This document shows, piece by piece, positions 2,875-58,691 of a stretch of 64,000 nt of DNA. The position numbers and the translations under genes were made by a program. The stretch spans positions 86,056,001 through 86,120,000 of the forward strand of contig OX597814.1 in the NCBI GenBank assembly GCA_951406725.2, given 5' to 3'. Origin of the DNA: Octopus vulgaris (lineage: Eukaryota). Within the stretch, counting starts at the first letter, position 1. Every line of letters begins with the position of its first letter. The notes under the pieces were generated by a model. That model ran no database searches and was not told the origin of the DNA. It saw nothing but the letters and a program-made list of their open reading frames with translations.

Positions 2875-2917
2875 CAAAGTAAAAATGGAAGGTACCGCAC
2901 GAGAGAAAATATTTAGG

Positions 2918-3867
2918 GAAGAGGATTTGAAAATGCAGAGGTCTTTTAAAGATGTTTATTGACTTGAGTGGTTTCACTTTTTTAAAAAAAGATCTTTAAA
3001 AGTAAAATGTGTAGCCTTTGTGGTGTTAAAAAATGGTTATCATAGATGTATTAAAATACAGTGATACAGTCTTTGACAATGATAAGAGAATGTTGAGAAA
3101 TAGAATCTTTGACAATGATAATAAAATTTTAAGAGGGGCTTTTTGTTTAAATAGTTTGCATGAAAATATTCAATATATGTATTAAAATAAATTGATAACT
3201 ATTTATAAGTTCTTCAAAAATCATGATTGTATATAAGCACATATACAGAAAGACTTTGTAGACAGTATTTGATAGGAGAAAGCGAGTATTGCTTAGTCAG
3301 AAATCATATTTAAGTATTTATACAGAATTTTAGGAGAATGACCAACCTTTTTTCTTAATTTCTGATGAAGATTTAACGGCAGGAAACAGAGATGCGGACA
3401 GAGGCGTCGAACTCCCTTCTTGCTGAAGTGCCACGTATCAGAGGTGGTTTCACATACTAGTGTAGCTTATTCAACAGTGGTGCCTCAGCATGGCCGCAGC
3501 TTTCGGGCTGAAACATTTTTAAGGATTTAAGGATTTAGCAATATACGCTTTCTCCTATCAAATACTGTTCACAAATTCTTTCTGTATATATATGCTTATA
3601 TAGAATCATGATTTTTGATGAACCTATAAATAATTATGGATTTATTTTACTACCTATTCTGAACAATTTTATGTAAACCATTTAGACGCACAGCCCCTCT
3701 TAACATTTTCTTATTATTGTCAAAGACTGTATCACTGTATTTTAATACATCTATGATAACCATTTTTTAACACCACAAAGGCTACACAAAGCCTTATATT
3801 TTACTTTTGAAAATGCGAAACCGGTCAATTCAATAAACAACTTTATCTGCATTTTCAAATCCTCTTC
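2918..3867. repeat. Long imperfect inverted repeat (arms ~2918-3293 and ~3537-3867, spacer ~245 bp)
   Basis: gaagaggatttgaaaatgcaga (2918-2939) is the reverse complement of 3846-3867. 3008-3080 is the exact reverse complement of 3716-3788 (73 bp). Inner ends 3262-3293 and 3537-3568 also match. Confidence 0.95.
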
Positions 3868-4004
3868 ACTAGATATATATATACGACGTAAGTTACCAGC
3901 AGAAACTTACGCATAGACATGCTTACATTAATACACACACATATACACACGTACATACACAAATATATACATGTATATATATGTGTGTGTATGTGTGTGT
4001 GTGT

Positions 4005-4802: not shown

Positions 4803-5188
4803 CCACAGGAGTGGCTGTGTGGTAAGTAGCTTATTTACCAATCACATGGTTCCGAGTTCAGTCCCACTGCGTGGCATCTTGGGCAAGTGTCTTCTGCTAT
4901 AGCCCCGGGCCGACCAATGCCTTGTGAGTGGATTTGGTAGACGGAAACTGAATATATATATATATATATGTGTGTGTTTGTGTGTCTGTGTTTGTCCCCC
5001 TAGCATTGCTTGACAACCGATGCTGGTGTGTTTACGTCCCCGTCACTTCACGGTTCGGCAAAAAAGAGACCGAAAGAATAAGTACTGGGCTTACAAAGAA
5101 TAAGTCCCGGGGTCGATTTGCACGACTAAAGGCGGTGCTCCAGCATGGCCGCTGTCAAATGACTGAAACAAGTAAAAGAGTAAAAGAG
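4803..5188 (+). mobile_element. tRNA-derived SINE family A (octopus OK/OR-type), full length
   Basis: Pol III A box tggctgtgtgg and B box gagttcagtccc, cttgggcaagtgtctt core, internal (TA)n(TG)n, tail ccagcatggccgc...gactgaaacaagtaaaagag. Near-identical to 16601-17009. Confidence 0.9.
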
Positions 5189-5227
<39 letters not shown>

Positions 5228-5277
5228 TGTGTGTATGTGTTTGTGTGCAAATATAAATATATATATATATATATATT

Positions 5278-5620
5278 ATCTTTTATTTGTTTCAGTCTTC
5301 CTTGAAAAGATCTTTGTTGAACGAATCGACCCTGGTACTTATTTTATTGGTCTTTCTTTAACCTAAATAACGGGGACGTTCACAAACCAATACCGGTTGT
5401 CAAGCGGCGGTGGCTTACAATCATGTACACAAAGGCACACATTGACATATATATATATATACGATGCACTTCAGTTTCCGTCTACCAAATTTACTCACAA
5501 GCTTTTGCTCGAAGCGAGGCTATAATAGAAGATACTTGGCCAAGGAGCCACGCAGTGGGACAGAAACCGGAAGCATATGGTTAGGAAGCCAACTTCTTGC
5601 CACACACCCACGCCTGCACC
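5278..5620 (-). mobile_element. SINE family A, diverged copy, tail-to-tail with the previous copy
   Basis: Reverse complement matches family A head (ggtgcaggcgtgggtgtgtgg), body (ggtagacggaaactgaa) and tail (gactgaaacaaataaaaga). Confidence 0.85.
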
Positions 5621-19949: not shown

Positions 19950-20358
19950 CATGTGAGGATGTTGTGGGGGAAGCGTCTATGTATGTATGTGTGCATGTTG
20001 TGTGTGTACAAAGATAGGGAAGGATAGCAGAAAAGAAAGTATGTGAATAAATAAACCAAATAATAATAATAAAAAAACCTATGGAGGAAAGTGGATGAGT
20101 GTAAGGAGCAAGGGGGGAAGAAGAGTGATGTTGTAGAGAGAGAGACACAGAGACACAGAGACACAGAGACACAGAGAGAAAGAGCGAAAGTGAAAGTGAA
20201 AGTGAAAGTGAAATACATACAGAGAGAGTCGAAGAGAGTGAAAGTCTGTGCATGTATATATGTACTTGTCTATGCGCTTGTTGTGCATTATTGTGTGTGT
20301 GTGTGTGTGTGCGTGTGTGTATGTCTGTGTGTGCGTGTGAGTGTAGAGAGAGACTTAC

Positions 20359-20490
20359 CTTCAGCAGTTCGAGTTGGGCGAGCGATTTCCACAAAAGATA
20401 GTCTGACTACTAATTAAAACAGTAAACACATCAGATAAGCTACGATTCTGTTTGAGTAGAGTTGATATGATGAACGGGCGACGTGTGTGG
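20359..20490 (-). other. Candidate first (probably non-coding) exon of a minus-strand host gene
   Basis: Unique CpG-containing island ending in a consensus donor AAG|GTAAGT (plus strand acttac|cttcag at 20353-20364). The 5' boundary is uncertain. Confidence 0.35.
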
Positions 20491-20920
20491 GGAGAGACAC
20501 TGAGAGAGAGAGAGAAGTGCGTTGGAATTGATGGCGATGGTGGTGGAGCGGGGTTATAGGAGACGGTGAAGGTGGTGGAGCGCGGTTATAGTACGGGGTG
20601 AGAATGAGGATAGAGAGAGAGAGACAGAGAAAGAGAGAGACGACACAAGCATACGTGCACCCACATGTACGAAAGAGACACAAACGCATACACATAAAAA
20701 AAAACAGACACACATACACATACTTACATATTGTTTTCAAGGAAGAAAGAGATGTCGGTGACACGGAGACAGACAGACAGACAGAGAAAAAAAGGGAGAG
20801 AGTTAGAGGATAGGGAAGAAAAGAGAAAGAAAAGAATGCAGAATGGATAATTAATATACACACATATATAAAAATACGTACACGCCCCGCATACACACAC
20901 ACGCATATATGTGTATACAA

Positions 20921-20953
<33 letters not shown>

Positions 20954-21455
20954 CATATTTACATGCACATATACATGCATGTGCATATGTATATATGTGT
21001 GTACATACACACACATATATTTATATATATATATATACACACACACATTTACACATACATAGACACACACACACACACACACATACACATGTATCTATAT
21101 GTCAGTGTGTATGTATAGAGAAGAGTGTGCTGTGTGTGTGTGTGTGTGTGTGTTTCTGTGTGTGTGAGTGAGTGTATGTGTGTGCTTTAGCAAGAAGGTG
21201 CTTTGTTTCATATTACAGCTTTTTTTACTACATTTTTCCTACATTTTCCAAAGTTCGCATTTCCCTCATTTTTTTCCTCTATTTCTTTTTGTTCTTTTTT
21301 ATTGCCTCATTGTATAGTGTTAATGTAATTAACAGTGACTATGTAAATCTAAACAAATATTCGTGTCAGTAGGTGTATATGCATACGAATACATACATAT
21401 ATATATATGCATATATATGTTTCTAGATATAAGTATACATATATATTTATATATA

Positions 21456-21502
<47 letters not shown>

Positions 21503-21722
21503 GCATATATATATATTTATACATATAAGTATGCATATATATTTATATATATGCATATATATATATATATATTTATACATATGTATACATATATATATTC
21601 GTATAAACTTATATACGAATACATGTATGTACATGGATGTTTGCATATATATATATATGTGTGTGTGTGTGTATGTATGTATGTATATATGTATATATAT
21701 ATGTATATATATATATATGTCA

Positions 21723-21815
21723 GTGTGTGCGCGCGTGTGTGCGCGCGTGTGTGCGCGCGTGTGTGCGCGCGTGTGTGCGCGCGTGTGTGCGCGCGTGTGT
21801 GCGCGCGTGTGTGTG
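21723..21815. repeat. (GTGTGTGCGCGC)7 12-bp tandem repeat
   Basis: Seven perfect units of alternating purine-pyrimidine sequence. Confidence 0.95.
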
Positions 21816-22925
21816 TATTTATATGAATATCTATATATCTACATATATATGTAGGTACACACACATATGTATATAGAGAGAGATAGGGACACCTACAAAT
21901 ATATACATGCAATATGTATCTTGTATATGCTTATGTATGCGTGTGTAGTCTCGCATGTACAAAGATGTGTGAGTTTGTTGGTCTATATGAGTATATACAT
22001 ACATACGTACACTCATACATATATAAATGCATACATAAATACATACATACACACATACATACATAAATACATACATGCACACATTTATACATATATGCAT
22101 ATACATACATAAATACATGCATGTATACATAGGTACATGTATACATATACCTGTATGACTAAACATCTATAAATGTTTGTGCAAATGGTATATACGTATA
22201 TATATGTGTGTGTTTGTGTGTGTGTGTGTGTGTGTGAATGCACATATAAATATGACTGTATGTGTATATGTGTATGTGTGTGTGTGATTGAGAGTGTGTG
22301 TATGAGTGGGTGGTTGTGTATGCAGGGCAAGAGAGAAAGAAAGAGAGAGCTACTTCAATAGGATATCGGCATGAATGTGTATGCATGTATATATAAGATT
22401 ATGCGTCTTCATGTGTATATTTGTATATATAGTTGACCATATGTGTGTACGTCTCAATGTGCGCGCTATTGCGAATACGTTAATAAAATTAGTGTAACGC
22501 TAATCAGAACAAATATTCATCTCATAAATGAAAATGTGTACATATGTGCATTAATGTATGTATGTATGTATGTACGTATGCATGTATGTATATATATATG
22601 TATGCATGCATGTATGTATGTATGTATGTATGTATGTATGTATGTATGTATGTATGTATGTATGTATGTATGTATTTGTGTATGTATGCATGTATGTATG
22701 CATGTATGTATGCATGTATGTTTGCATGCATTCATGTATGTATTATGTGTGTGTATGTGGATATAAGCTAGTATATAAGCATGTATGTATATGTGTGTGC
22801 ATGTATATATTTATTTATACGCAAGTATGTGCGTGTGTACAGAGAGAGAGATGGAGAGAGAAAGATGTACAGAGAGAGAGATGGACGAGAAAGAGCGAGA
22901 GCGAGGAAGAAGTATACATATATAA

Positions 22926-23049
<124 letters not shown>

Positions 23050-23055
23050 ATATGC

Positions 23056-23102
<47 letters not shown>

Positions 23103-23451
23103 GCATAAATATATATGTATATATATATATACATATACATATATATATATATATATATATACATAGGCATATATATGTATGCGAATATATATATGAGAGA
23201 GGAAGGAACATAGATGTAGATGTATATATATATGTGTGTATATATAAATATATATATATATCTTTATATACACATATGTGTGTGAATGTATGTACATCTA
23301 GATACATACCAAAACATTAATCTCCACTAATGCAATTATTGAGATTTTATCTGCATATATAAATGTCTCCTCATGTGTATATGCATATACATGAATTCAT
23401 GCTTACATATAAATATATATGTGTGTGTGTGTGTGTTTCTGTGTGTCTGTA

Positions 23452-23535
<84 letters not shown>

Positions 23536-23555
23536 TATATATATATACATATATA

Positions 23556-23648
<93 letters not shown>

Positions 23649-23869
23649 TTGTATATATATATGTATATTATGTGTATATACATACCTATGAATCTCTGTG
23701 TGTGTGTATACGTACATATGAAAGCAGAAAGAATATGTGCATGCATGTATAGAGCTGGTGACAACTGACAAGAATTAGAGTTAACAGAAATTCTTGTCAT
23801 TTGCAACATTATGCACATGCATGTTAATATTGGTATTACATATTATGAAATAATATATTAAAGCATGCT

Positions 23870-23929
<60 letters not shown>

Positions 23930-23934
23930 CATAC

Positions 23935-23968
<34 letters not shown>

Positions 23969-23989
23969 TCTATATGCATATATAGGTAC

Positions 23990-24034
<45 letters not shown>

Positions 24035-24373
24035 GCATATGTAAATAGACATATATAATAAGCATTTTATATATACTCGCATACATATATATAAATATAT
24101 TTATATGTGAATATATATTTATAAACATATATATATCTATGTATGTATATACGTATATGTGCATATAGATAAATATAATGACATATATATAAATAAATAC
24201 ATATGTGCATGCATATATACATAAATACGTATGTGTATATATAAATATTTATTTGTATGTGTGTGTGTACATGTGTGTGTGTTTCTGCATGTGCATATGA
24301 ATGTATTTATAGATATGTATCTATTGATATATGTGTTTGTTTGTGTGTGAGAGTGTATGTGTATGTGTGTGTG

Positions 24374-24429
<56 letters not shown>

Positions 24430-24617
24430 TATTTAAATATATATACCTATTCACAATATTTCGATATTCAAACCTATATACAGTAAACATGGTTATTGAT
24501 TCTCGCCCGTCTTGCCATCCTGTTTTGCCAATATAATATACTTAATGTGTACGTTTGTGTATGTATGTATGTATGTATGTATGTATGTATGTATGTATTT
24601 ATGTATGTATGTATCTA

Positions 24618-24663
<46 letters not shown>

Positions 24664-24732
24664 TACATGTATATATACATGCATATACATATATACATAT
24701 ATTTAAATGTATGTATATATATATATATATAT

Positions 24733-24778
<46 letters not shown>

Positions 24779-24863
24779 GGATAGATAGATAGATAGATGT
24801 ATATATTCACATACATATATATGCATATGTGCACACACCCTTGTAATGCATGTTGATATACAT

Positions 24864-24896
<33 letters not shown>

Positions 24897-24910
24897 TACA
24901 TATATATATG

Positions 24911-24975
<65 letters not shown>

Positions 24976-25051
24976 ATAGAAATGGCAAGACAATAAAAGA
25001 ATAAAAGTGACCTCGATATTATGTAAATAGAGGAATTTATCTGTAAATATA

Positions 25052-25174
25052 ATATGTGACAATTATTCGGTAGGCCATCGATGGTCCGATAACTGAAGAG
25101 ATGCCGGCGTGGGTTTCCGCTCCGACATCCGAAACTCAGAGTTTTATCATGCCTACCGAATAATTGTCACATAT
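25052..25174 (+). mobile_element. 123-bp element: hammerhead motif enclosed by a perfect 24-bp inverted repeat (Penelope-like inverted pLTR relic)
   Basis: atatgtgacaattattcggtaggc (25052-25075) is the exact reverse complement of 25151-25174. Confidence 0.7.
25088..25148 (+). ncRNA. Type-I hammerhead ribozyme with long stem II
   Basis: gataa-CTGAAGA-gatgccggcgtgg gttt ccgctccgacatc-c-GAAAC-tcaga-GTT-ttatc. Stem I is gataa/ttatc, stem II is ~13 bp and imperfect, stem III is the near-palindrome actcagagt. Confidence 0.75.
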
Positions 25175-25210
25175 ATAGATATATATATTTGAAACAACCA
25201 TATTAAGATA

Positions 25211-25252
<42 letters not shown>

Positions 25253-25310
25253 TGTATGTATGTATTTGTATGTATATATATATGCATATTTATATATATA
25301 TACATGCATA

Positions 25311-25359
<49 letters not shown>

Positions 25360-25452
25360 TTATATATATACATATACATGTATGAACACACACATGCATA
25401 CATATGTATATATTATTTCCGCATGATTTAATCAATGGAAGTTCTGTATGAA

Positions 25453-25485
<33 letters not shown>

Positions 25486-25817
25486 GTGCGTGCGTGCCTC
25501 TGCATGAGCGCTCGTACGTACTTTTATACATGCACAAATATTTTATACATGCGCAAATATTTATGTAAATTGTTAATGTGCCAAGCTTATACTTTATATT
25601 GTCATAATTGCACACAGCATTGCTCACCTCGCTCCCCTGACATATACATACACACGTACTAACGTACATATATACACCTATACATACATATATTTTCACC
25701 CGCGTATATATTTGTCTATATATAGTAATGCTTATTTGTATTATATATACATTTATGTGTAAATATGTATACATACTTAAATAAATATGTTCATTCATGA
25801 AAAGGTATACATAATTT

Positions 25818-25875
<58 letters not shown>

Positions 25876-26346
25876 TATATACGTACGTACATGCATACAT
25901 ACATACATACATGCATCCATCCAGCCATAGATACATACATGCATACATACATACATACATACATACATACATACCTACATACATACATACATACATACAT
26001 ACATACATACATACATACACACATACATACGTACGTACGTACGTACATGGTTGTATACGAGCATGTTAACTTCAATGTATTTATGTATCTGTGTCTATTT
26101 ATATATGAGGTGTATCTCATGCAGGAGGTGTATGGATGAAGGTCAGATATTCCCTTGATGTGGGTACACAACTATAATACCAAGGTGATGAGTAATACTA
26201 CAGGACTGTGTGCTGTTACGATGGTCTTGGATCTGAGAAGTAATCTCGTTCTAGTCTCACAGGAATATTCAATCGGCAGACGACACCGTGGAAGGTGAGG
26301 GTTGGTGTGGAGAGAAAGAGGGAATGATTGAGAGGCAATGAGTGAT

Positions 26347-26416
<70 letters not shown>

Positions 26417-26590
26417 GTGTTTGTGTGACAGATGCATGAGAATTAGAGAGAGGGTGAGAGTTTGTAATGTGAGGGATTCTGTCGGTCAGATAGGAGTTCG
26501 TGATACAGTAACAGTGTTACAGTGAGGGGATTAAGTGTGATGAGAAGAGACAGGTAGAGGAAAATACATCGACGTTGGTGAGAGAGTTAT

Positions 26591-26681
<91 letters not shown>

Positions 26682-27194
26682 TATATCTATATATACACAC
26701 ATATATATATATGCACATAAATGTACGTATATTACATAAAAGGAACATACAGTAAGCGTGTGATGGAGGTTAGGGATAAGTTAATGGGAGATAGGCTGGT
26801 TGGCCAGGAATGAAAGACAGAAAGAACGGAAAGGAAGATTATGAAACAGAAAAGAAACAAAGAAATTTGAGAAACAAAGACAAAGAGAAACAACAAGGGA
26901 GAGAGAGAAAGAGAGATAAAGAAAGGATAGAAGAATGTATGATCAAAGATAAAGAAAGATAAAATACGACAGCGCGAGAGAAAGAGAATTATAACAGATG
27001 GTAAGAGAGCAGGAATGTGAGAAAGTGCAAAGAGAAAGAGAGAGATCTTAAATAGGAAGACAGAGGGAATGTAAGAGGGTGAGCGAAGAGAAAGCCTGAG
27101 CAAAAGTGAGAGCATAGAAAAGTAAGCGAGAATGGAGTGAAAGAGAGAGAAAGACAGAAGAACGCGGGAGAGGGAGAGAGCGTGAGAGAGAGTG

Positions 27195-27575
27195 TAGAAT
27201 GTGCGGCCGATTTTGGTTGGACACAGCCAATGCCAGTAAAAAGTGGCAAGGGAGATTTCCAGAGGAAGTGAGTTCCTCCTCACGAAAATTTTATGACCGT
27301 TCAAGCTGAAATTATGCCAGTAGGCAATAAGGTAGCTTGAATACTAAGGGGACTGCTCGCTTCTTCAACAAACACAAGTGACCAGGAAGAACAACACAAA
27401 TAAATATATCAGAGCCAAGACGAAAGTGAAAGTACAAGCAGGAAGAACAGAACAAAAGGGGTAAAGGAAACAAATCGCTTCGCAAGATAGTAGTCAAAGG
27501 AACCTGTGTACACTGAAGAATGGAATACCAAAAATATCATCATCATATTACTCTAACAATCTACTTCAGCCAAAG
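27195..27575 (+). promoter_or_regulatory. Candidate promoter and first exon of a plus-strand gene
   Basis: Unique island after a purine-rich tract, with CCAAT at 27227, GGAAGT (ETS-like) at 27264, ATG at 27520 and a weak donor AAG|GTGTGG at 27575. Confidence 0.25.
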
Positions 27576-27783
27576 GTGTGGCAATCTTTATATATATATA
27601 TATATATATACATTCATATATATTTTTTTATCTTATTCGTATTCTATTTCTTTTGTTTTCATTTCATTTTGTTTTATTTTATATTACTGTTGGATTCATG
27701 TCCGTCCGTCTGTCTGTCTGTTTATATGATTACACATTTACCTCTTTATCTGCTATTCTCTGTTTTTCTGTCTCTTTCTCACT

Positions 27784-27851
<68 letters not shown>

Positions 27852-28045
27852 ATATCTATATATATACACACATACATATATATACACACACACATACATA
27901 TATATATATATAGTTATATTTATGTATGTATGCACATATACACACACACATTTATACGAATGACATATACACAAACACACTCACACGCATAAAACATATA
28001 CACATATATCGTGTACGCATACGCCTATGTGTGTGTCTGTATATG

Positions 28046-28202
<157 letters not shown>

Positions 28203-28219
28203 GGATGGATGGATGGATG

Positions 28220-28291
<72 letters not shown>

Positions 28292-28525
28292 TGGGCATAT
28301 AAAGATATAGTGTATACCTAGACGTGCGAATGAACACACATACACAGAAATGTTGACAAGGTCTGTGTCTGCTATACACAAATGTTCACGTGTAAAATTG
28401 AAAGCAGACGACAAGGAAATACGTATCTATCCACTATGCAAGGAATATTTCACCATATTGTGTAGAGTGTTGACAATCGCTAACGAAGTGACTGAAATAT
28501 CGCCCCTGCATTGATTTATGTGTGT

Positions 28526-28602
<77 letters not shown>

Positions 28603-28789
28603 TGTGAAGGGACAGTAAAGCGCACACAACCAAAATTGGGTTTAGTAACGGGTTTCACACTCCTTTCCAGTACCCAGTGTAGTACAACGTGTGATACCAA
28701 CCTTGGAATAGCATAGTGTGTAGAATACGATCCAAATAATGTGTGTGTGTGTGTGTGTGTATTCATATATATACATATGCATATATTTA

Positions 28790-29001
28790 TATGAGTGTGC
28801 CGATAAGTTCTTGACTTCAGGTAAAAAAAAGATACTGGAAAATCAGTTAATTATGTTTTTATTTAACATATTCCCCTCTCAGATTCAGACCCTTATTGCA
28901 GCGGTCCTTCTAAACCCTGTAAAAGAACTGCGGAAGTTAGGCTTCCAACCAAGTGTTTCGCGACGCCCTTAAAGCCAAGTACTTTTCAGCCCCCCCATGT
29001 A
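28790..29001. mobile_element. Mariner-derived MITE
   Basis: Diverged TIRs tatgagtgtgccgataagttcttgactt and aagccaagtacttttcagcccccccatgta, with TA at both ends. Confidence 0.75.
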
Positions 29002-29072
29002 ATTATGTATGTATATGTAGATGTGTATATATTTATTTATATTTATATATATGTGTGTGTGTGTGTGTACAG

Positions 29073-29190
<118 letters not shown>

Positions 29191-30026
29191 GTATATACAT
29201 ACATATATATATGTATGTATATACATACATATATATATGTATGTATGTACACACCTGCATTTATTCTCCATTATGAGCTTATATGTCTGTATACACATTT
29301 AGTATAGAGATATAAAATGACCATGTGCGCTGTTCTTGCTGATATTAATCCAGATCCTAAGCCTTAAGTCAGTCTTGATTGAGCGAATTTATTAGAATCT
29401 CATTCTAGCCATACCCAACCTGTCTTCTTTTTTCTTTCTTTCTTTTCTTTTTTTTTTTTTCAATCTCAGTAATCCTAGAACAACACTATCCAAAGCGTCC
29501 TCATAATTTTTATAAAACATACTACATGACACGAAAATAATTTTAACTGTCACTTCTAGCAGGTCGCGGAACAGCAAACTGGCTCAGTGGACGACATGTA
29601 TGTCACATGTTGAGATTGTTTAGCCTCGGTTACCTTTGATCCAGCAGAGCAAAGATCAAATGTATTCCAGCAATGACCATCCAGTATAGAGTTTTAGAGT
29701 TACGTTTTGCGCGTATCTTTACTTCTGGTTATGGGATAATTTGAAAGAAATTTAACTGTTATTTCTAAACAATCAAGCAACAACGTGAATGTCCCATCTT
29801 TCAATCAGTGGTTTTTCTAGATACTACATATGGAAAGGTTTGTCTTTATACGACGATATCTACATTTCGTATGCGTATTCCCAATAAAGAATAAACCGCT
29901 ATACATATCACATGCATACATAATGGTAACCATACATGCATATGCATAGTAACATGCATATATATGTGTATGTACAATTGCGAGTGTGTGTATGCATTAC
30001 GATATTATTATGTTATACTATATATA

Positions 30027-57900: not shown

Positions 57901-58691
57901 TATCGGGTCTCTACACCCGTGGATACCCCTGGTAATTAGCTTGTGTGCACATCTTTAAGATGTCACTGAACAGGATTTTGAAGCCTTGAAGGAATTGATC
58001 CGGGGATTAAGTTGGCTTTTGCGTGCGAGTTATAGGTTGATGTCTCGTAAAGACCTACGCTTTTTTGACAAATTATCACACCCGCGTAACTCGAAATCTG
58101 CAATAAATTCGAATAATTGTGAGATACAAAGTTTACAAGACGAGTAATGTGTCGAGATCGGGAATCCTGGAAAGACAATTTTCAAATGTAAGAAGTCAGT
58201 GTTTGAATCCCGAAAAAACTGACACCATTTGAAAAGGAAACGTATTGAGTCTTTCGGGGCTTGAGAATGTACGATAAAAGATCCGTATACCAAAGACTTT
58301 ATTCAGCTAATAATTCTGTAGCACAGACATTCGGCTTACATACTGACGTGCATTCGCCTATTATGTGTCATATCAATTATTTAAGCGATGTAGAATCACT
58401 TGTCTACACAACTAGAGAAAATGAACACTCATAACGTGTGCTAAATATACTAAATATACTTATTTAGTAGTCGTGTTCGTGTGAAGATCTTCACACGAAT
58501 TTACCAAGCTGCATGTGCATGTGAGAAGCTATACAGTTTGCTCACATGCATATGTAGTCGCATTCGGTGTCAATGATAATTTAGCATGCGAATTACATAA
58601 AAGTCATATCTCATGTTTTTGAGTGAAATTATAGAGTATCCAATACTAATTTAAGACATAGACAATGTATGTATGTATGTATGTATGTATG

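What the first reader, a model, noticed from the sequence alone, without database searches (positions are those of the whole stretch)
25052..25174. Hammerhead ribozyme clamped by a perfect 24-bp inverted repeat
Seen: a 123-bp GC-richer island among TA microsatellites. Its ends are exact reverse complements, and its interior has an intact CUGAAGA/GAAA core, a 5-bp stem I, a long stem II and a near-palindromic stem III with a GUU site. Known: Penelope-like elements carry minimal type-I hammerheads that can cleave as dimers, and they often leave inverted partial pLTRs. Inference: this is either such an inversion footprint or a very small ribozyme-bearing mobile or hairpin RNA (retrozyme-like) in which the IR extends stem I.
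Basis: partly seen in the sequence, partly recalled or inferred. Interest (0 to 1): 0.75.

Follow-up and report, generated by a model that had tools for sequence, protein, structure and literature searches.

The report
Folded-back end of Penelope retrotransposon
This hairpin is a 210-base stub of a very abundant Penelope-like jumping gene, two back-to-back pieces of its ribozyme-bearing end inserted into a TA repeat, likely made in one copying event and predicted to cut itself poorly if at all; this layout is already described for such elements.

Summary
The perfect 24-bp inverted repeat and the type I hammerhead motif are real, but they are not a 123-bp mini-element. The left arm continues about 80 bp beyond the reported edge, as the antisense of the sequence that follows the hammerhead in a Penelope-like element (PLE). 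The family has 3,283 exact core copies. One degenerate copy links this hammerhead to an RT/GIY-YIG frame, and a younger subfamily has intact 708-aa frames with the Hydra-clade motifs. Copies end at two fixed points after the ribozyme. All 32 of 32 inverted insertions of the young subfamily, 28 of 30 older ones and the window copy have one long and one short end, in TA repeats. The inner junction varies: 48 copies share this geometry and only one has this junction. Folding predicts that the junction competes with stem I rather than extending it. Verdict: an ordinary head-to-head truncated insertion of a Hydra-clade PLE, a new family member with a known architecture. The scan noted this kind of stub before, in this genome and in others. 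Self-cleavage and expression are untested.

The parts
24915..24971 (.). (TA)n target microsatellite, left flank
   Evidence: sequence
24972..25075 (-). Inverted, 5'-truncated 'long' arm: element positions about +63 to +167 (0 = first base of stem I, 25088), including the tail
   Evidence: 93.5% over 108 bp to the PLE copy in L031; alignment; ends at the +167 site used by 33 of 100 arms
24972..25038 (-).
   Evidence: loose contig ends at 25038 followed by AT/CA repeats in 3 of 4 runs
25052..25075 (+). Left arm of the perfect 24-bp IR (the part of the long arm also present in the short arm)
25075..25084 (.). 10-bp palindrome at the inversion junction
   Evidence: palindromes at PLE inverted junctions are described in PMC3846280 (passages)
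25078..25180 (+). Sense, 5'-truncated 'short' arm (-10 to about +99); about 7 nt appear lost just after 25174, which likely shortened the IR to 24 bp
   Evidence: 94.8% over 97 bp to L031; alignment; the deletion is inferred
25088..25148 (+). Type I hammerhead motif of the pLTR: stem I 25088-92/25144-48, CUGAAGA 25093-99, stem II 25100-25129, extra C 25130, GAAA 25131-34, palindromic stem III 25134-42, predicted cut after U 25143
   Evidence: same layout as Hydra rows in File S2 of PMC8557442
25151..25174 (+). Right arm of the perfect 24-bp IR; carries a rare G>C at 25152 that is matched in the left arm
25181..25189 (.). Short AT run, right flank of the target
   Evidence: sequence

Best explanation
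24972-25180 is a doubly 5'-truncated, head-to-head insertion of a Hydra-clade Penelope-like retrotransposon in a (TA)n repeat, likely made when the element's endonuclease nicked both strands, two cDNAs were primed at the element's two fixed start sites after the hammerhead (+167 and about +100), both stopped early, and their ends were joined at a short palindrome. The 24-bp IR is the sequence that both arms copied, likely trimmed later by a small deletion. The hammerhead is the ordinary pLTR ribozyme of the parent. It is predicted to need a partner RNA for stem III and to be misfolded in this context, so the copy is likely inert. SHOWN: family size, link to an RT/EN frame, two end sites, one long plus one short end per inversion, variable junctions, TA targets. 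INFERRED: twin priming, end joining, the later deletion, low activity.
For: Copy number: 3,283 exact 16-nt core copies (control 1) and 3,336 exact 20-nt post-cut copies (control 0). Link to a coding frame: in L031 this hammerhead and tail run directly into a degenerate RT/EN frame, and in L033 the EN end and 3' UTR run into the hammerhead. A younger subfamily has intact 708-aa frames in 2,590-bp tandems, 70-74% identical in protein to L031 over the two best pieces. It carries RWK (aa 37), DKT (114), CxCx5C (557), CxxC (660) and CxH (691) and lacks GxKF/Y, the features listed for Hydra in PMC8557442 section 11. 3' ends: older copies, 58 of 100 at +96 to +125 (16 of these are alignment run-on into AT repeats) and 33 of 100 at +166 to +170; young copies, 40 of 98 at +95 and 45 of 98 at +162. 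Inversions: 60 of 100 older arms have antisense element sequence within 30 nt of their 5' end. One long plus one short end in 32 of 32 young outward-facing pairs and in 28 of 30 examined older copies of the window's geometry. The window's junction is 1 of 48 such copies, whose spacers run from 3 to 25 nt. The architecture is in print: PMC8557442, PMC3846280, PMC4209133. Two internal RT start sites and cleavage of both strands were shown in vitro for an anole PLE (PMC11167929).
Against: No intact frame of the window's own older subfamily was seen; the link is through degenerate copies and a subfamily 77% identical in DNA. Pfam gives GIY-YIG only at E=0.013, below cut-off, and no RT family. No tree with reference Hydra proteins was built. 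The right arm matches cleanly only to +86, not the usual +96 to +103, so its short end is inferred. Some junctions do recur: 8 of 48 and 7 of 48 (counted by eye). In 4 of 4 other copies with the 25152 variant and a visible partner arm, the partner lacks it, so the match in this copy needs either a variant source RNA or later hairpin repair. In vitro, PMC11167929 saw no difference in start site between strands. Within the family the stems show no covariation above shuffles.
Confidence: 0.93

Rival explanations
1. A non-autonomous hairpin or retrozyme-like mini-element bounded by the IR that is transcribed, self-cleaves and is re-inserted as a unit by the PLE protein.
For: 48 exact copies have a short antisense arm just 5' of the hammerhead; in 8 of them the junction falls on stem I so the IR does extend it perfectly. 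Animal retrozymes derive from pLTRs (10.64898/2026.07.22.740005, abstract and introduction).
Against: The window's junction occurs once in 48. The stem I junction occurs on at least three subfamily backgrounds and with the tail on either side (L263 vs L243/L251/L261/L266), which points to repeated independent formation at a 5-6 nt microhomology. There is no tandem array of the unit, which defines non-LTR retrozymes. The arms are asymmetric and follow the parent's two end sites.
Confidence: 0.04
2. The junction marks a real ribozyme cut: cDNA ran off a self-cleaved RNA near +56 and was captured by the second cDNA.
For: The window's antisense arm stops at +61 to +65, close to the cut; 8 of 48 same-geometry copies can be read as stopping at +56.
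Against: 5' ends are spread from +61 to -248, with 1 of 100 exactly at +56 and 2 within +54 to +58; 1 clean case in 98 young arms. Another 5-nt microhomology far from the cut is used about as often (7 of 48). Cleavage was dispensable for insertion in vitro (PMC11167929).
Confidence: 0.07
3. A MITE-like DNA transposon with 24-bp terminal inverted repeats that captured a hammerhead.
For: Perfect terminal IR flanked by TA.
Against: The 'TIR' is internal PLE sequence. 40 of 46 scored matches lack the left arm as part of the match, and the left arm runs 80 bp further.
Confidence: 0.01

Closest known systems
Hydra clade of C-terminal EN+ Penelope-like elements (Craig et al. 2021, PMC8557442), e.g. 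Hydra-1_Obim, Hydra-1_Ajap, Hydra-2_Amil
   Same: Unit under 3 kb, single ORF, RWK/DKT/CxCx5C/CxxC/CxH motifs, (TA)n targets, hammerhead in the pLTR. The CUGAAGA core with a U at the cut site occurs in Hydra-1_Obim, -1_Ajap and -1_Crog; the ACUC-N-GAGU stem III occurs in Hydra-1_Ajap, -2_Ajap and -2_Amil (supplement rows).
   Different: A different family from Hydra-1_Obim: stems I-III differ in sequence. The tail is about 67 nt rather than 30-40. The youngest subfamily has C at core position 4 (4,316 exact copies).
Inverted 5'-truncated pLTR insertions with a one-sided tail (PMC8557442 Fig. 2 legend; PMC3846280)
   Same: Head-to-head arms, tail on one arm, palindrome at the junction.
   Different: Only in scale: both arms here are about 100 nt. 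The one-long-one-short pattern is counted here (32 of 32).
Minimal PLE hammerheads (Cervera and De la Pena 2014, PMC4209133)
   Same: Type I, 5-bp stem I, long stem II, G-C at the base of stem II, small palindromic stem III suited to dimers.
   Different: The unpaired base lies 3' of stem II (C before GAAA), not 5'; stem III has 4 palindromic pairs.
Non-LTR retrozymes (10.64898/2026.07.22.740005)
   Same: Non-coding, type I hammerhead, pLTR origin.
   Different: Retrozymes are head-to-tail tandems with a ribozyme in each unit; this is a single motif in a head-to-head stub.

Membership tests
Hydra-clade PLE | Single RT + C-terminal GIY-YIG ORF in a unit under 3 kb | tested here: met
   708-aa ORF, 2,590-bp tandem unit; degenerate ORF contiguous with this hammerhead in L031. 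Pfam GIY-YIG is weak, E=0.013.
Hydra-clade PLE | RWK present, DKG changed to DKT, GxKF/Y not conserved | tested here: met
   RWK aa 37, DKT aa 114, no GxKF/Y match, on the young-subfamily protein
Hydra-clade PLE | CxCx5C linker; CxxC and CxH in the EN | tested here: met
   aa 557, 660, 691
Hydra-clade PLE | CCHH motif absent from the EN | not tested
   No alignment to CCHH-bearing ENs was made
Hydra-clade PLE | Groups with Hydra in an RT tree | not tested
   Reference proteins were seen only as text in the supplement and compared by eye
Hydra-clade PLE | (TA)n insertion preference | tested here: met
   Ends abut TA (older copies also CA) repeats in the junction lists; window flanks
EN+ PLE insertion architecture | Inverted 5'-truncated copy with the tail at one end | tested here: met
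   32 of 32 and 28 of 30; window copy
Type I hammerhead ribozyme | Conserved core boxes and three stems | tested here: met
   Descriptor hit; stems I-III 90-100% paired per pair for most pairs over 40 copies. Extra C before GAAA; no Rfam hit.
Type I hammerhead ribozyme | Compensatory changes in the stems | tested here: inconclusive
   No excess over shuffles in 40 closely related copies
Type I hammerhead ribozyme | Self-cleavage | not testable with these tools
   Needs an in vitro assay; monomer fold probability 2e-6 in this context by secondary-structure energy only
Non-LTR retrozyme | Head-to-tail tandem units, each with a hammerhead | tested here: not met
   One motif in the window; tandems seen were of the 2.6-kb coding unit
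Non-LTR retrozyme | Abundant circular or linear monomer RNA | not testable with these tools
   Only contigs of uncertain kind were offered
MITE | Fixed TIR-to-TIR boundaries shared by copies | tested here: not met

The most novel reading that the evidence does not exclude
Penelope-like elements insert by coupled twin priming: in each event one nicked strand primes at the far start site and the other at the near one, likely through a protein dimer on one RNA, so every inverted copy is forced to have one long and one short end (32 of 32 here). The hammerhead need not cut, since the youngest subfamily spread to over 4,300 copies with a U4C core. Snap-back stubs like this one, and the 8 whose IR extends stem I exactly, would be by-products that could yield clamped ribozyme hairpin RNAs.
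Probability: 0.35. Interest if true: 0.45.

Novelty: new member of a known kind. Interest (0 to 1): 0.15.

Why it matters
The locus itself is ordinary transposon debris. The family gives a clean count of a pattern so far described qualitatively: one long and one short end per inverted insertion. That constrains the unresolved PLE insertion mechanism and suggests that the two RT start sites seen in vitro are used as a coupled pair. It also shows a very successful subfamily with a changed core base, in line with cleavage being dispensable. For the scan: short hammerhead hairpins in TA-rich animal DNA should first be checked for a one-sided tail beyond the apparent IR.

Tried and rejected
Rfam: on 20000-30000 the 150 rows shown of 254 were microsatellite-driven miRNA/snoRNA matches; on 24975-25215 there was no hammerhead hit among 7. 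The repeat finder was swamped by microsatellites. Expression: no RNA holder listed; the runs laid were contigs of uncertain kind, no listed piece spanned the window's junction, and nothing is concluded. A pile-up of 5' ends at the cleavage site was looked for and not found. A sub-subfamily defined by the 25152 variant was rejected: 19 copies exist, and the 10 inspected lie on mixed backgrounds. CpG decay as the source of the canonical U4 was rejected for older copies: 51 of 56 have T and 3 have C. In one search I set the outer extension of stem I (columns 5-8 with 74-77) in the wrong register; those four pairs are disregarded, and they depress the whole-structure figure. Pfam on four long window frames gave nothing above cut-off. 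The by-sequence look-up of earlier findings was blank. No covariance model or structure prediction was run.

Full report
Observation. The arms 25052-25075 and 25151-25174 are perfect reverse complements over 24 bp. The interior holds a type I hammerhead motif with the predicted cut after 25143, the only descriptor hit in the window. The fold is far more stable than shuffles (z -8.2). Rfam does not report it as a hammerhead. Coordinates below take 0 as 25088, the first base of stem I; the cut is between +55 and +56.

It is a repeat. A DNA search of the own genome (2.8 Gb, 227 contigs) gave 2,131 first-look candidates, 40 scored and 46 matches. Only 6 of these, self included, span the whole 123 nt; the others begin at query position 24 or later. 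Exact motifs occur 3,283 times (core) and 3,336 times (after the cut), against 1 and 0 for reversed controls. Most copies continue 5' into a T-run and a longer UTR, and 3' into a further 80 nt whose antisense is what lies left of the reported island. The window's left arm matches that sequence over 108 bp at 93.5% and the sense part over 97 bp at 94.8%. The insertion is therefore about 24972-25180.

The parent. In L031 the hammerhead and tail run straight into a broken RT/EN frame; in L033 the EN end and 3' UTR run into the hammerhead. A 109-aa RT piece found 150 scored matches of 5,109 candidates, many in 717-codon open frames spaced about 2,590 bp apart. Four fetched regions show intact tandems with inverted partners. 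The 708-aa protein has RWK, DKT, CxCx5C, CxxC and CxH and lacks GxKF/Y, the Hydra features of Craig et al. 2021 (PMC8557442; section 11 read whole; passages; supplement passages). Their hammerhead table lists Hydra motifs with the same CUGAAGA core, ACUC-N-GAGU stem III and U at the cut site. By eye the protein resembles Hydra-1_Obim, but the ribozyme stems differ, so this is another family; the host is probably a cephalopod (inference). Limits: Pfam gives only a weak GIY-YIG match, no tree was built, and the intact subfamily is 77% identical to the older one that the window copy belongs to.

Geometry of insertions. I sampled 100 older arms by a motif 3' of the cut, taken in order along contig C1 and including the window's two. 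3' ends: 42 at +96 to +104, 16 at +105 to +125 (alignment run-on into AT repeats, read as the same end), 33 at +166 to +170, and 9 elsewhere. 60 of 100 have antisense element sequence within 30 nt of their 5' end; 5' ends scatter from +61 to -248. Among 98 young arms, 45 end at +162, 40 at +95, 5 read through and 8 lie elsewhere. These hits form 59 clusters, 32 of them outward-facing pairs, and all 32 have one long and one short end. A pattern for the window's own geometry found 48 copies with spacers of 3-25 nt; the window's junction occurs once. Of the 30 fetched, 28 are long plus short (19 with the tail left, 9 right) and 2 short plus short. The window copy follows the rule, tail on the left. 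Its right arm matches to +86 and seems to have lost about 7 nt before the usual short end, which would explain why the IR is only 24 bp (inferred).

The junction. A 10-bp palindrome sits at 25075-25084. Recurrent junctions among the 48 coincide with short microhomologies: 8 use stem I itself and 7 use another 5-mer (counted by eye). The stem I class appears on different subfamily backgrounds and in both orientations, so it formed repeatedly. No excess of 5' ends was seen at the cut: 1 of 100 and 1 clean case of 98. The G>C at 25152 is absent from 56 sampled copies and present in 19 genome-wide. In 4 of 4 others with a visible partner arm it is not shared. Its match in the window's left arm fits a variant source RNA or later hairpin repair; I cannot tell which.

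The ribozyme. With secondary-structure energies only, the monomer hammerhead fold has probability 2e-6 in the 123-nt RNA, 4e-4 without the IR and 5e-4 in a native pLTR context. Stem III costs +2.1 kcal/mol as a hairpin but gives -7.4 as a self-duplex. The IR thus does not help in this copy, because junction bases take the 3' strand of stem I. These numbers ignore tertiary contacts and are not activity measurements. Cervera and De la Pena (PMC4209133, parts 1-2 of 4 read) found metazoan PLE hammerheads inactive as monomers and weak as dimers, and noted opposite-strand pairs 100-700 bp apart. Frangieh et al. (PMC11167929, parts 1-2 of 4) found protein-assisted cleavage that was dispensable for insertion, two internal RT start sites bounding the tail, and nicking of both strands at AT-rich DNA. 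Stems are conserved over 40 copies but show no covariation above shuffles.

Mechanism. Most likely the endonuclease nicks both strands of a (TA)n repeat, one end primes at +167 and the other at about +100, both cDNAs stop early and are joined by microhomology or fold-back, and the result is a head-to-head stub with a one-sided tail. The two end sites, their pairing, the targets and the variable junctions are shown. The order of events and the coupling on one RNA are inferred. Arkhipova et al. 2013 (PMC3846280, passages) offer self-priming on an antisense template as another route to junction palindromes, which I did not exclude.

Novelty. The architecture and the clade are in print; searches returned the papers above, and the tail 'at one of the inverted pLTRs' is stated in PMC3846280 and PMC8557442. 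I saw no count of the one-long-one-short pattern in what I read, but I read parts only, and supplements other than that of PMC8557442 were not seen. The retrozyme preprint (10.64898/2026.07.22.740005, part 1 of 5) defines retrozymes by tandem units, which is not met here. U4C is a known natural core variant with reduced activity in vitro (PMC3088659, passages). Earlier unreviewed notes of this scan describe the same kind of stub in this and other genomes; my reading was recorded before I saw them. Verdict: a real but ordinary remnant, a new family member of a known kind, interest 0.15.

Noticed in passing
L081:1333-1400 and other young copies (L079, L080, L209-L307): The subfamily with intact ORFs has CCGAAGA (U4C) in the hammerhead core, and T instead of C before GAAA; 4,316 exact copies of the 16-mer. 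It suggests weak or dispensable cleavage in the most recently active copies.
   Followed up: partly
L079/L080 (G000:C1:57.208-57.223 Mb), L081: Arrays of up to about five 2,590-bp units arranged as two oppositely oriented tandems, with one long and one short outer end.
   Followed up: partly
window 2909-3875: A second fold-back of about 970 bp with arms of about 390 bp at 76% identity; no similarity to this PLE family. It could be a MITE or an inverted stub of another PLE family.
   Followed up: no
window 58476-58499: A perfect 24-bp palindrome without a spacer; origin not examined.
   Followed up: no
window 4932-5490: Two oppositely oriented copies of a short interspersed repeat ending in TA/CA runs; the same repeat flanks many fetched loci. 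The SINE label is recalled and comes from no call.
   Followed up: no
L033 (minus strand, 900 nt upstream of the hammerhead), L032: The older subfamily has a 3' UTR of about 900 nt with internal imperfect repeats of about 170 nt, against about 200 nt in the young subfamily.
   Followed up: no
L044 and L046; L188: Identical insertions at nearby positions, probably segmental or tandem duplication of host DNA rather than separate insertions.
   Followed up: no
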